DNA of 64,000 bases. Source: Gemmatimonadota bacterium (GTDB taxonomy: Bacteria; Gemmatimonadota; Gemmatimonadetes; Gemmatimonadales; GWC2-71-9). The position numbers and the translations under genes are program-made. The DNA is taken from positions 1 through 64,000 of the forward strand of contig JAZDCY010000068.1 in NCBI GenBank assembly GCA_036679645.1, read 5' to 3'. The notes below the pieces were generated by a model. It searched no databases, was not told the DNA's origin, and saw only the letters and a list, made by a program, of their open reading frames with translations. This document shows, piece after piece, positions 55,433 to 59,713 of the stretch (positions within the stretch are counted from its first letter, which is position 1; each line of letters opens with the position of its first letter).

Positions 55433-56401
55433 TCATGTTAACACCACCAACTTGCCCATAGCCTGGTTGCTCTCCATGTACTCGTGGGCTTGCACAATTT
55501 CCTCTAGTTTGAACGTCCGATCTATCCGTAGCGCTAGTTCTCCGTTCTCAACAGCGTTGATAAAGTCCTGTAGCGCTTCTCTGGTGAGGTTCTCCGATTC
55601 ACCCATGTAAACGGTTAGTCTCCCAAGTGAAGGTATATCGCCCATGGGAGTGAATTCTCTCATCGTCCACTCACCTCCCAGAATACCCGTGACACACACC
55701 ATTCCCCTTGGCTTGATACACTCGAGGGAATCTTTGAGAGTTCTAGTACCAATCAGTTCCAAAACCTTGTCAACTCCTTGCGGATAGATGGCCCTCACTT
55801 GATCTCGCACACTTCCGCTGTCAACGACGACATGCGCAGCCCCATTCTGCTTCAAGAAAGATTCCTTGGCTGGATTGCGCGTCGTAGACACTACGGTGAG
55901 TCCAAGATGTTTGGCGAGCTGGCAGGAAGTAATACCGATGGATGAAGTCCCTCCCCTAATCAGCAATGTCTCTCCTTCTTGGACTTCTAATGCTTGATGC
56001 AAGGAGCCGGACACGGTCTGACACATTTCAGGAATTGCGCCGAGTATCTTCCAGTCCAACGTGCTTTCAAACGGAAAGACTATCTGATTCGGCACCAAAC
56101 TGTATTCGGCATACCCACCATCGAAATCTCTTCCCATTCCACCCATCAAGGCAGCCACCTTTCGTCCCTTCGATAACTTGCGAGAGGGATCGTTCTCAAC
56201 CTCACCGATACATTCGATGCCTTGTATCCTCGGGAATCGCACTCCGGGGGAATCACCCTGACGAGTGAACAACTCTGACCGGTTGAGGCCAAACGCCCTG
56301 ACCCTGATCAAGATCCAACCATCCTTGACCTCGGGGACGGGAACATCTTTGACTCTTATGACCGAAGCAGGTCCCGCCTTCTCGGTGACCGCTGCTTTCA
56401 T
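55433..56401 (-). CDS. Zinc-binding alcohol dehydrogenase-family (quinone oxidoreductase-like) protein
   Basis: FGLNRSE, GIECIG, DGGYAEY, RGGTSSIG, AHEYME.N.A.GK; visibly more AT-rich codons than its neighbours. Confidence 0.9.
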   Translation of the reverse strand: MKAAVTEKAGPASVIRVKDVPVPEVKDGWILIRVRAFGLNRSELFTRQGDSPGVRFPRIQGIECIGEVENDPSRKLSKGRKVAALMGGMGRDFDGGYAEYSLVPNQIVFPFESTLDWKILGAIPEMCQTVSGSLHQALEVQEGETLLIRGGTSSIGITSCQLAKHLGLTVVSTTRNPAKESFLKQNGAAHVVVDSGSVRDQVRAIYPQGVDKVLELIGTRTLKDSLECIKPRGMVCVTGILGGEWTMREFTPMGDIPSLGRLTVYMGESENLTREALQDFINAVENGELALRIDRTFKLEEIVQAHEYMESNQAMGKLVVLT

Positions 56402-56444: not shown

Positions 56445-56969
56445 TTAGGCAGGCGTCTGCTTTTCCGAATACACCCAATCGGGACGGCGGGACATGAGGA
56501 CCCGCAGATCCATGCGGATCTCCTCGGCCGTGGGACGGCCGACGAACCACCAGCCGTTGTAGACCTTATAGATCGTTCGATCCCGATCCAGCATGAACGT
56601 GTAGGGGATGTACACCTCCCCGTGCGCCTTATCAGTCGTGTCCGTCATCTGCAGCTCGTGGAGCAGGCGGCGGTCGGGATCCATGAGGAACGGCCAGTCA
56701 GCGGCGAGGGCGGTGCACGTCTCTGTGGTGTTCATACGGTCATCGACCGAGACTGTGATCATCTTGCAGTAGTTGACCCTGAACTCGGGCTGAAGTTGCT
56801 GCACATAGATCGTCAACTGACGACGATCTTTTGGTCAGTAGTATCCGCGGCTGAAGATCAGGACGGTGGGGAATCCCCGTATCAGCTTGGACAGCTGCTG
56901 CATATCGCCGTCCTGATCGGGCAGCTCGAAGTCGGGAAACTGGTTGCCGACCTCGAGATCGGGATGCAT
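56445..56969 (-). CDS. Redoxin (AhpC/TSA-like) with an in-frame UGA at codon 45: probable selenoprotein
   Basis: MHPDLEVGNQFPDFELPDQDG...LIFSRGYY-UGA-PKDRRQL...YKVYNGWWFVGRPT. Cys-containing relatives read RG..CPKD. A hairpin follows the UGA. Confidence 0.8.
56807..56837 (-). promoter_or_regulatory. UGA codon and candidate bacterial SECIS element
   Basis: UGA CCAAA AGAUCGUC-GUCAGUU-GACGAUCU: an 8-bp perfect stem whose loop starts with GU, 13 nt after the UGA. Confidence 0.55.
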
Positions 56970-57092
56970 GGGGTAGTCCACGGGCGTCTCCCTGAGAGAG
57001 CAATCCTTCGCCGGAGTCAGTCGGCGATCCGTTCACGTCGCCGTCATGATTGCGAAGCTATATCAGCGTCGGGAGGGGGGCCAGCGGGACGA

Positions 57093-57208
57093 GTGAGCCG
57101 CTGGCGTCGCGCGGCGCTAGATTCTCTCGTGCCCCAAAAGATCTGTCCCCGTACTTGCCAAGCAGTGGCTTCGATGGAGATTTCGTAACGGTACATCTTG
57201 ACTCTAGC
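57093..57208 (+). repeat. ~115-bp direct repeat, copy 1 (paired with 59600-59713)
   Basis: GTGAGCCGCTGGCGTCGC...ACTTGCCAAGCAGTGGCTT.GATGGAGATTTCGTAACGG.ACATCTTGACTCTAGC is present in both copies. Confidence 0.9.
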
Positions 57209-57313: not shown

Positions 57314-59551
57314 ATGATAGAAGCCTTCGACCGCCTCAAGACCGCGCTCTCCAACCGGTATGCGATTGACCGGGAGATCGGCGAGGGGGGGATGGCCATC
57401 GTCTATCTCGCAGAAGACCTCAGGCACGGCCGCCAGGTAGCCTTGAAGATCCTCCGCCCGACACTTGCGGCCACCCTCGGAACCGACCGTTTCGTGCGCG
57501 AGATCGGGATCGCCGCGCGCCTCACGCATCCTCATATCCTGCCCGTCCATGACTCCGGGGTGGCTGATGGCGTCTTCTACTACGTCATGCCTTACATCGA
57601 AGGTGAGTCGCTGCAAGAGCGACTCGAGCGGGAGACCCAGCTTCCGCTGGACGACGCGCTGCGGATCGTGCGTGACGTGGCCGATGCCCTGACCTACGCG
57701 CACGACCAACAGGTTCTTCACCGCGACGTCAAGCCGGCGAACATTCTCCTGTCCGGTGGGCACGCCGTGGTCACCGACTTTGGGATCGCTCGAGCGATCG
57801 AGTATGCGGACCACAAGGTCATCACCGAGGCGGGGGCGGTGATCGGAACGCCGGCGTACATGAGCCCCGAGCAGGCGAGTGGCGAGGAGGAACTCGATCG
57901 CCGCAGCGATATCTACTCGCTCGGCTGTGTGTTCTATGAGATGTTGGCCGGCAAGCCGCCGTTCGAGGGTCCCACCCCACTCTCGACCCTGCTCCAGTCG
58001 ATCGGCGACCCAGTACCGCCGCTGCGGCACCTTCGGCCCACGATCCCCGGCCATGTAGACGCGACCTGTGCAAGGGCGCTGGCGAAGCTCCCCGCCGACC
58101 GGTTTGCGACAGCAGCCGCGTTCGTCGAGGCACTCGGAACGCCCGGCGCCGTGGCGCCGGTCTCCGAGCCGACGTCCATCGCTGTCCTGCCCTTCGTCAA
58201 CATGAGTGCGGATCCCGAGGCCGAGTACCTCTGCGACGGCATTACCGAGGAGATCATCATCGCGCTCTCACAGCTCGACGACTTCCGCGTGGCAGCGCGG
58301 ACCTCCTCGTTCTCGTTCAAAGGCAAATCGCCAAGTCTCGCCGAGTTGCGCGAGAAGCTGAACGTGAAGACCGTGCTCTCGGGGAGTGTCCGCAAGGCCG
58401 GAAATCGGTTACGCGTGGTAGCCCAGCTCGTGGGCGTTGACGACGGCTACCACCTGTGGTCGGAGCGGTACGATCGTGAAATGCAGGACGTCTTCGCGAT
58501 CCAGGACGATATTGCGGGGGCCATCGTCGCGACCTCCAAAGGCCACGTGGCAGCCGAGAAGTACGCAGGGTCGGTACGGCGCTACACCGCTAATGTCGAG
58601 GCGTACGAACTCTACCTGAAGGGACGCTACGTCGAGAAGACGAGACGTCGTTCAGGATTCACGAAAGGGATCGAGTACTTCGATCGAGCCATCGAGAGGG
58701 ATCCGGAATACGCCCTCGCATATGCCGGTCTTGCCGACACGTACAGCCTGCTGGCATGGTACCGCTTTCTTCCACCGCGCGAGGCGTTCGGCAAAGCGCG
58801 GTCCGCTGCTCAGCGGGCGCTGGAAATCGACGACACACTTCCGGAGGCTCACACCTCGGTGGGCGTCGTGCAGTTCTACCATGATTGGGACTGGCGAGGT
58901 GCCGAACGCGCGTATCGCAGGGCCCTCGAGCTCAATCCGAACGATGCCACCGCCCTGCACAGCTACGCCGAGTGCCTCGCGGCGCAAGGATGCCTGGAGG
59001 AAAGCCGGGCGCTGATCCAGCGTGCGCATCAACTCGAGCCGCTCTCGCTGACGGTCAACGCAGGTCTCGGCTGGATACACTTCTTCAGCCGCAATTTCGA
59101 TCTCGCCATCGAGCATCTCGAAAAGACGATCGACATGGACCCGGAGTACGTGTTTCTGAACTGGTTCCTGGGACAGGCGTACTTGATGGCGGGACACGAG
59201 GAGCGCTCGATCGCTTCGTTTCGAGAAGGGTTTGAGCGCTCGGCGGAACACCCGGGAATGGCCGCGTACCTCGCCTACGCGTACGCGCGGTCGGGAAGGC
59301 CCGAAGAAGCGAAGCGGATCTTCCGCGATCTGACACAACAGGCAAAACGAACCTACGTGCCGGCAGACTACTTCTGTGTGGTTTGCATGGGTCTGGGTCA
59401 CACCGACGAAGCTTTCGACTGGCTGATCAAGGCGACCGAAGAGCGGGCGCTGCACATGGCCTTTCTGGGTGTCGATCCGCTGTTCGATAGCCTGCGCTCA
59501 GACCAACGATTCACTAGGGTCCTTGAAACGATTGGATTGAAAACGGGGTAG
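57314..59551 (+). CDS. Cytoplasmic Ser/Thr kinase with TolB-N-like domain and TPR repeats
   Basis: HRDVKPAN, DFG, MSPEQ; SIAVLPFVNMS; TPRs; DSLRSDQRF; no clear TM. Confidence 0.95.
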   Translation: MIEAFDRLKTALSNRYAIDREIGEGGMAIVYLAEDLRHGRQVALKILRPTLAATLGTDRFVREIGIAARLTHPHILPVHDSGVADGVFYYVMPYIEGESLQERLERETQLPLDDALRIVRDVADALTYAHDQQVLHRDVKPANILLSGGHAVVTDFGIARAIEYADHKVITEAGAVIGTPAYMSPEQASGEEELDRRSDIYSLGCVFYEMLAGKPPFEGPTPLSTLLQSIGDPVPPLRHLRPTIPGHVDATCARALAKLPADRFATAAAFVEALGTPGAVAPVSEPTSIAVLPFVNMSADPEAEYLCDGITEEIIIALSQLDDFRVAARTSSFSFKGKSPSLAELREKLNVKTVLSGSVRKAGNRLRVVAQLVGVDDGYHLWSERYDREMQDVFAIQDDIAGAIVATSKGHVAAEKYAGSVRRYTANVEAYELYLKGRYVEKTRRRSGFTKGIEYFDRAIERDPEYALAYAGLADTYSLLAWYRFLPPREAFGKARSAAQRALEIDDTLPEAHTSVGVVQFYHDWDWRGAERAYRRALELNPNDATALHSYAECLAAQGCLEESRALIQRAHQLEPLSLTVNAGLGWIHFFSRNFDLAIEHLEKTIDMDPEYVFLNWFLGQAYLMAGHEERSIASFREGFERSAEHPGMAAYLAYAYARSGRPEEAKRIFRDLTQQAKRTYVPADYFCVVCMGLGHTDEAFDWLIKATEERALHMAFLGVDPLFDSLRSDQRFTRVLETIGLKTG

Positions 59552-59599
59552 CGGATCCCGAGAATGGGGACTCTGGTCCGACGAAACCAACCGGGGCAC

Positions 59600-59713
59600 G
59601 TGAGCCGCTGGCGTCGCCCGGCGCTGCGATTCTCTCGTGCCCCACATCCTGCCCAGCACTTGCCAAGCAGTGGCTTGGATGGAGATTTCGTAACGGCACA
59701 TCTTGACTCTAGC
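59600..59713 (+). repeat. ~115-bp direct repeat, copy 2; probably the dodecin promoter region
   Basis: Ends CATCTT-GACTCTAGC immediately before the AGGAGG SD of dodecin. Confidence 0.9.

What the first reader, a model, noticed from the sequence alone, without database searches (positions are those of the whole stretch)
56445..56969. Hidden selenoprotein: redoxin with UGA at the catalytic Cys and a SECIS-like hairpin
Seen: one continuous 174-codon frame runs from ATG 56969 to the stop at 56445, broken only by TGA at 56837-56835 in RGYY*PKD, with intact coding sequence on both sides. An 8-bp stem (AGATCGTC/GACGATCT) with a GU-starting loop lies just downstream. Knowledge: this AhpC/TSA-like subfamily normally has RG..CPK(D/E), and bacterial SECIS elements sit immediately 3' of the UGA. 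Inference: selenocysteine is encoded. The ORF track reports only the 123-aa C-terminal half. The stem is slightly closer to the UGA than in typical SECIS models.
Basis: partly seen in the sequence, partly recalled or inferred. Interest (0 to 1): 0.82.

Follow-up and report, generated by a model that had tools for sequence, protein, structure and literature searches.

The report
Hidden selenocysteine redoxin with UxxD motif
A stop codon in the middle of a small bacterial redox gene is almost certainly read as the rare amino acid selenocysteine, likely through a short conserved RNA hairpin; this recoding is well known, but this variant, with aspartate where a second cysteine usually sits, is missing from the catalogues I could check.

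Summary
The finding holds. The frame is broken only by one TGA, and the genome has selA, selB, selD and tRNA-Sec. Of 128 related loci covering that codon, 61 have TGA and 67 TGC/TGT, none anything else. All 21 TGA-bearing genomes tested hold selA, selB or tRNA-Sec.

Three corrections. (1) The start is likely GTG 56981 (178 aa). The loop is in 45 of 45 TGA against 10 of 46 Cys forms, with compensatory changes. (3) Sec aligns with the first Cys of thioredoxin-type CxxC and Asp with the second, so this is not a canonical peroxiredoxin.

It is a UxxD variant of the known Prx-like (AhpC/TSA) selenoproteins. UxxD is not in a 2026 list of 119 families, and no NCBIfam model reaches its cut-off. BSepDB's family table was not visible. 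Selenium incorporation and substrate are untested. The scan found this kind of gene twice before on other DNA.

The parts
56445..56981 (-).
56988..56993 (-). Shine-Dalgarno-like AGGGAG, 6 nt before GTG 56981
   Evidence: Read from the sequence; function inferred
56835..56837 (-). In-frame TGA, inferred selenocysteine codon (U45 in RGYY-U-PKD)
   Evidence: 61 TGA, 52 TGC, 15 TGT among the 128 of 134 loci that cover the column
56810..56823 (-). Conserved SECIS-like hairpin UCGUC-AGUU-GACGA; the loop (56818-56815) starts 16 nt after the UGA
   Evidence: AGTT loop in 45 of 45 TGA against 10 of 46 Cys forms; 5-bp stem in 44 of 45 against 7 of 46; 99.4% of cells paired, 3 of 5 pairs with changes on both sides.
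56807..56829 (-).
   Evidence: (all 8 pairs in 1 of 45 TGA forms)
56826..56828 (-). Asp48 codon, at the place of the second Cys of CxxC and of the peroxidatic Cys of peroxiredoxins
   Evidence: alignments with ResA and archaeal BCP; D in 41 of 47 TGA rows, C in 5, G in 1

Best explanation
The gene has one in-frame UGA that is almost certainly decoded as selenocysteine, likely through SelB binding a conserved AGUU-loop hairpin 16 nt downstream, giving a predicted thioredoxin-fold redoxin that likely works with a single selenol. Shown here: the open frame, the Sec machinery genes, TGA/Cys alternation, and a hairpin conserved with compensatory changes in TGA forms and mostly decayed in Cys forms. 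Inferred from established Sec biology: SelB-GTP-Sec-tRNA binds the loop while the ribosome sits on the UGA. In this allele the free RNA is predicted to fold in a slipped register; once the first 9-11 nt after the UGA are held single-stranded, as a ribosome would hold them, the conserved register is predicted to win (P 0.92-0.99). Inferred for the protein: Sec45 at the start of helix 46-58 is the nucleophile, attacking a peroxide or a disulfide. With Asp48 in place of a resolving Cys, the oxidised selenium would be recycled by an outside thiol. About 0.96 for Sec decoding in the family, about 0.9 for this allele being decoded, about 0.6 for the one-selenol, externally recycled chemistry. The substrate is unknown.
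For: Machinery in the own genome (92.7% complete): selA 480.9 bits (cut-off 267.9), selB 359.2 (242.25), selD 366.1 (125, itself with one TGA), tRNA-Sec 76.1 (47). Three more AhpC/TSA genes there carry one TGA in UxxC or TxxU motifs. Column 45: Cys in 117 of 120 database proteins; 61 TGA and 67 TGY in 128 loci. The frame stays open for 124 or more codons after the TGA in 53 of 61; 7 others end at locus ends and 1 (L142) is frameshifted. Differences from 29 close TGA relatives are mostly synonymous on both sides of the TGA: 450 against 177 codons before, 1093 against 428 after. Arg49 uses one codon in all TGA forms against 0.38 in Cys forms, while 45 other degenerate sites average 0.54 against 0.48. 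Five UxxC relatives at about 56% identity keep the same loop and spacing with other stem letters. Cys form L038, nested in a starred clade of 31 TGA rows, has lost the hairpin. Of 21 TGA genomes, 20 have selA or selB over cut-off and the last has tRNA-Sec and selD; of 28 Cys genomes, 19 do. Model pLDDT 93.1; best match BcpB, Z 20.2, rmsd 2.5 over 154 residues. U45 aligns with the first Cys of ResA CxxC.
Against: There is no protein or RNA evidence. In free RNA of this allele the conserved register has a predicted probability near 0, and alone it is only -5.4 to -6.8 kcal/mol, short of the published -7.5 limit. This allele has Cys at 85, where 120 of 120 database homologues and 46 of 47 TGA rows have Arg, so it may be impaired. 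Most Cys-form genomes also have Sec machinery, so that contrast is modest (p 0.03, related and incomplete genomes). 10 of 46 Cys forms keep the AGTT loop. Related sequences inflate all the counts. There is no conserved gene neighbourhood to suggest a substrate.
Confidence: 0.9

Rival explanations
1. The TGA is a nonsense change or a sequencing error and the gene is a pseudogene.
For: The gene was not found in 36 of 36 same-family genomes searched. The allele has a private R85C change. One relative, L142, is frameshifted inside the hairpin.
Against: 61 loci from many phyla have TGA at this column and none has TAA or TAG. Changes are mostly synonymous on both sides. The hairpin codons are locked only in TGA forms. 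Contigs of run X1 at depth about 76 and 90 match the window over the codon without differences (X1 may be the source sample, so this is not independent).
Confidence: 0.02
2. The family is a true selenoprotein family, but this allele is poorly decoded or is decaying: the Thr-to-Ile change at 54 extends a competing hairpin, and Arg85 is lost.
For: The alternative register has P 0.999 in free RNA and is complete in only 1 of 45 TGA forms. R85C is private to this genome.
Against: Holding 9-11 nt after the UGA unpaired switches the fold to the conserved register. About half of all TGA forms are predicted to favour the slipped register in free RNA (19 of 45), so it is normal for the family. Against its closest relative L076 the gene differs at 21 synonymous and 10 non-synonymous codons, with no frameshift.
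Confidence: 0.07
3. UGA is read as Trp or another ordinary residue (an alternative genetic code).
For: 2 of 120 database proteins show Trp at this column, likely TGA forms called under another code (inference).
Against: No TGG occurs at this column in 128 loci. The genome has tRNA-Sec with a UCA anticodon and a selD whose TGA sits in the known UxxK motif. A code change would not explain the hairpin.
Confidence: 0.01
4. The protein is a canonical peroxiredoxin with Sec as the peroxidatic residue.
For: The best structural matches are BCP/PrxQ and AhpE peroxiredoxins, and many homologues are automatically named 'peroxiredoxin'.
Against: U45 aligns with the Thr/Ser of the TxxC motif and D48 with the peroxidatic Cys. 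There is no PxxxTxxU, and Pro122 lies about where peroxiredoxins have the catalytic Arg. It could still reduce peroxides by glutathione-peroxidase-like chemistry.
Confidence: 0.05

Closest known systems
Prx-like thiol:disulfide oxidoreductase selenoproteins (PF00578; UxxC, UxxU), 'Prx-like 1' of the GOS survey (PMC13188914 Table 1; PMC2398784 Table 2)
   Same: Same Pfam domain, Sec at the first position of the CxxC-type motif after RGxx, and an in-frame SECIS. Five UxxC loci at about 56% identity (YRGVW-U-PKC) share the very same hairpin geometry and fall inside the family tree.
   Different: Asp replaces the second Cys. The family has its own invariant C-terminal motif (YNGWWxxGRP). UPKD and UPKE occur 0 times in the GOS sequence supplements.
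Peroxiredoxin-like AhpC/TSA selenoprotein (cd02970, UxxS) and redoxin family selenoprotein (PF08534, UxxC) (PMC13188914 Table 1)
   Same: Same fold class; the UxxS form also lacks a second Cys in the motif.
   Different: The motif is UxxD. I could not compare with the representative sequences, so a close relation is not excluded.
Sec-containing peroxiredoxins (PxxxTxxU) and BCP/PrxQ, AhpE
   Same: Same fold: BcpB Z 20.2, rmsd 2.5 over 154 residues; AhpE Z 19.6, rmsd 2.1 over 152.
   Different: Sec is three residues before the peroxidatic position, and the TxxU motif is absent.
Bacterial SECIS consensus model (PMC13188914 Fig. 2 legend)
   Same: 4-nt loop, G at loop position 2 followed by U, 5-bp upper stem, 16-nt spacing.
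   Different: The conserved stem alone is weaker than -7.5 kcal/mol; the region meets that limit only in the slipped register.

Membership tests
Bacterial selenoprotein gene | In-frame UGA aligned to conserved Cys in homologues | tested here: met
   Cys in 117 of 120 proteins; 61 TGA and 67 TGY of 128 loci
Bacterial selenoprotein gene | selA, selB, selC and selD in the genome | tested here: met
   all over cut-off
Bacterial selenoprotein gene | SECIS geometry: loop 3-9 nt, stem 4-16 bp, G in first two loop positions, 16-37 nt from UGA | tested here: met
   AGUU loop, 5 bp, 16 nt; covariation; model
Bacterial selenoprotein gene | SECIS free energy at or below -7.5 kcal/mol | tested here: inconclusive
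   Region -12.2 in the slipped register; conserved register alone -5.4 to -6.8; TGA forms average -9.8, Cys forms -5.8
Bacterial selenoprotein gene | Selenium incorporated into the protein | not testable with these tools
   Needs 75Se labelling or mass spectrometry
AhpC/TSA (PF00578) thioredoxin-fold domain | Profile match over the curated cut-off and thioredoxin-like fold | tested here: met
   64 bits against cut-off 26; model and fold matches
Prx-like UxxC selenoproteins | Sec at the first position of a CxxC-type motif | tested here: met
   Aligns with the first Cys of ResA
Prx-like UxxC selenoproteins | Second Cys (or Sec) three residues after Sec | tested here: not met
   Asp48; D in 41 of 47 TGA rows and 54 of 55 Cys rows
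Canonical peroxiredoxin | PxxxTxxC/U motif with the reactive residue at the last position | tested here: not met
   SRGYY-U-PKD; Asp at the peroxidatic position
Canonical peroxiredoxin | Catalytic Arg before the strand that follows the third helix | tested here: inconclusive
NCBIfam selenoprotein families (SelL_rel_redox NF040769, WAxxUGC_long NF041054, deiodinase_rel NF038285) | Score over the curated cut-off | tested here: not met
   35.1 against 120, 18.8 against 300, 17.3 against 250 bits for this protein; 121 members gave only weak matches, best E 2.1e-09

The most novel reading that the evidence does not exclude
An uncatalogued, horizontally spread selenoprotein subfamily in which a lone selenocysteine and an aspartate (UxxD) sit with a family-specific set of invariant residues (H116, P122-Y123, N138-G-W-W, R145-P146). 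It would act on a dedicated small-molecule substrate rather than as a general antioxidant. The family has switched between Sec and Cys at least four times, and between UxxD and UxxC at least once, with the SECIS gained or lost in step.
Probability: 0.25. Interest if true: 0.6.

Novelty: new variant of a known kind. Interest (0 to 1): 0.38.

Why it matters
It corrects an annotation: about half of the DNA copies found here (61 of 128) carry the TGA and are cut in two by standard gene calling, so protein databases show almost only Cys forms. It adds a motif, UxxD, to the selenoprotein list. It gives natural Sec/Cys pairs at 80-90% identity, plus UxxC sisters, for testing what Sec and a resolving Cys each contribute. 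It also gives a minimal SECIS at the 16-nt lower limit with clear covariation. It changes no principle: UGA recoding in thioredoxin-fold proteins is well known.

Tried and rejected
Rejected as the conserved element, kept as the predicted fold of free RNA.

A genome-wide hairpin scan as a way to list selenoproteins: too many chance hits (810 of 22,043), used only as a chance control.

Neighbourhood: no conserved partner. A homologue of the downstream oxidoreductase lies in 6 of 134 loci, only L023 closely (87%, same arrangement).

Sequencing runs: no RNA holder listed. Four runs were laid as contigs; they say nothing on expression.

The tree is the quick one, since the careful search did not finish. 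It needs 10 label changes, of which starred branches force 4; direction was not tested.

Cys85 as a resolving Cys: it lies in helix 78-88, where some PrxQ enzymes have one (recalled, from no call), but it is private to this genome, so it is not a family mechanism. Cys68 is commoner (102 of 120) but not invariant; distances could not be measured.

A full-text search for UxxD, UPKD, CPKD, UxxE and RGxxU gave unrelated papers in the 20 of 329 listed. Searches listed nothing describing this family. Two papers on new selenoprotein families (PMC12013261, PMC9879109) were not held; a preprint of the second was seen as a listing only.

Full report
Observation. The frame 56969-56445 on the minus strand has 174 codons, one in-frame TGA at 56837-56835 and a TAA stop. 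The ORF list shows only the 123-aa C-terminal half. The read-through protein matches PF00578 over residues 7-135 (64 bits, cut-off 26), so the domain spans the TGA. The start is likely GTG 56981.

Machinery. The genome (92.7% complete) has selA, selB, selD and tRNA-Sec, each over its cut-off. selD has its own TGA in GAG-U-ACK, the listed UxxK motif. Of 13 PF00578 matches in the genome, 4 contain one TGA. The other three read RGKW-U-PYC, NNTPG-U and ARTRG-U, the known UxxC and TxxU types.

The column. In the best 120 of 397 database homologues the column is Cys 117 times, Trp twice and Ser once. That set is biased, because TGA forms are cut by gene callers. DNA searches gave 54 genome loci and the best 80 of 87 metagenome loci; one of the six seeds favoured Cys forms. 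128 of the 134 cover the codon: 61 TGA, 52 TGC, 15 TGT, nothing else. After the TGA the frame is open for 124 or more codons in 53 of 61. Seven shorter ones match loci that end inside the gene; the eighth is, by elimination, L142, which has a frameshift. Against 29 close TGA relatives, synonymous codon differences outnumber non-synonymous ones about 2.5 to 1 on both sides of the TGA.

Genomes of the relatives. I searched 50 of the 54 genome loci, leaving out L069, L071, L074 and L075; they lie in 49 genomes. Of 21 genomes with a TGA form, 18 have selA and 18 selB over cut-off, and 20 have one or the other. The last, G005, has tRNA-Sec and selD (which covered 5 of the 21). Of 28 genomes with a Cys form, 19 have one or the other and 9 neither (Fisher p 0.03; the genomes are related and incomplete). 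TGA forms are labelled Gemmatimonadota, Marinimicrobia, Acidobacteriota, Chloroflexota, Nitrospirota, Alphaproteobacteria and others. Among 60 relatives of this genome, 0 of 36 in the same family and 1 of 24 in the same order had a match, at 38% identity. That patchiness suggests horizontal spread (inference).

The hairpin. From 129 rows I kept 105 distinct ones. I then dropped 5 UxxC forms, L142 and 8 rows under 54% identity, leaving 45 TGA (window included) and 46 Cys rows. The AGTT loop is in 45 of 45 against 10 of 46, and the 5-bp stem in 44 of 45 against 7 of 46. In 43 TGA and 48 Cys rows, Arg49 uses one codon in all TGA rows against 0.38 in Cys rows, and Arg50 0.88 against 0.38; 45 other degenerate sites average 0.54 (maximum 0.82) against 0.48. 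So the lock is local and not only kinship. On 33 of the 62 TGA rows, which I picked for variety, the shifted register has 99.4% of cells paired and two-sided changes in 3 of 5 pairs (17 cells, 0 of 500 shuffles as high). The five UxxC relatives form the same loop at the same distance from different stem letters. The loop starts 16 nt after the UGA with G second and U third, meeting the published geometry (PMC13188914, section 5 read). Against this: the conserved stem alone is -5.4 to -6.8 kcal/mol, short of the model's -7.5, and its probability in free RNA of this allele is near 0. With 9, 10 or 11 nt after the UGA held unpaired it rises to 0.92, 0.99 and 0.94. The same review says the lower helix unwinds on the ribosome (passage); that the ribosome causes this switch is my inference.

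History. A quick tree of 103 rows needs 10 changes between TGA and Cys, at least 4 forced by starred branches (shuffled mean 34). The window lies in a starred clade of 31 TGA rows and 1 Cys row, L038, whose codons no longer form the hairpin. The UxxC forms are a starred clade inside the family. The tree is unrooted and unfinished, so direction is not shown.

The protein. The model from 121 sequences has pLDDT 93.1, with residue 45 just before helix 46-58. The best matches are BCP/PrxQ, AhpE and 1-Cys peroxiredoxins, with ResA-type proteins close behind. In profile alignments residue 45 pairs with the first Cys of ResA's CxxC and with the Thr/Ser of peroxiredoxin TxxC, and Asp48 pairs with the second or peroxidatic Cys. 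It therefore works like a thioredoxin-type nucleophile without an in-motif partner, and is not a canonical peroxiredoxin. The Asp/Glu form is general: of the 150 best distant representatives, 111 show the motif pattern, 51 as CPKD and 40 as CPKE. The likely mechanism is a selenol attacking a peroxide or disulfide and being recycled by an outside thiol. This rests on knowledge of one-Cys thioredoxin-fold enzymes and is untested. This allele's R85C change, at a position that is Arg in 120 of 120 homologues, may impair it. No conserved neighbour points to a substrate.

What is known. PMC13188914 (sections 5 and 7, parts 1-2 of 3, with all of Table 1) lists 119 families, among them Prx (TxxU), Prx-like (UxxC, UxxU), AhpC/TSA (UxxS) and redoxin (UxxC), and none with UxxD. 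It counts a different Sec motif as a distinct subfamily. PMC2398784 (passages and supplement searches) has no UPKD, UPKE or YYUP; UPK occurs 19 times, and the 2 passages shown were other proteins. PMC1976440 and PMC5330540 were seen as passages; the second reports an AhpC selenoprotein in Blastococcus whose alignment I could not see. PMC12013277 had no hit for my terms. For PMC13326102 I saw passages; its supplement was cut before the family table. No NCBIfam model reaches its cut-off for this protein. BSepDB works by homology, so it may already hold such genes under a Prx-like label. Two earlier notes of this scan describe look-alike genes in other genomes; they are not independent evidence.

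Verdict. This is a real, well-supported selenoprotein gene of a known kind with an apparently unlisted motif. Interest 0.38.

Noticed in passing
G000:C32:6006-6446 (-), C99:16806-17177 (+), C62:31615-32016 (+): Three more AhpC/TSA-domain genes in this genome have one in-frame TGA, in UxxC (RGKW-U-PYC) or TxxU motifs; likely further unannotated selenoproteins.
   Followed up: partly
L009 (G000:C5:100469-101401): selD has an in-frame TGA in GAG-U-ACK, so it is likely a selenoprotein itself; selD of G003, G005 and G044 also has one TGA.
   Followed up: partly
window 57085-57208 and 59592-59713: A direct repeat of about 124 bp, 87% identical, flanks the Ser/Thr kinase-TPR gene at 57314-59551; it may mark an insertion boundary next to the redoxin.
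   Followed up: no
window 55433-56401: A quinone oxidoreductase-like gene starts 43 nt after the redoxin stop and has low third-position GC (0.56 against 0.74-0.85 in five neighbours). The same pair occurs in L023, an alphaproteobacterial record, at 87% identity, suggesting a transferred two-gene block.
   Followed up: partly
L065, L066, L067, L070, L140, L141: A Chloroflexota-rich sister group at about 56% identity has YRGVW-U-PKC (UxxC) with the same AGUU-loop hairpin.
   Followed up: partly
L157 (G094:C2:863499-863960): A 38% identical relative keeps Cys in CPKE but has a TGA at another column with no hairpin of this type; probably a broken gene.
   Followed up: partly
window 56715-56717: Codon 85 is TGC (Cys) where nearly all relatives have Arg, private to this genome; contigs of related organisms in runs X1 and X3 show the Arg-type letter.
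   Followed up: partly
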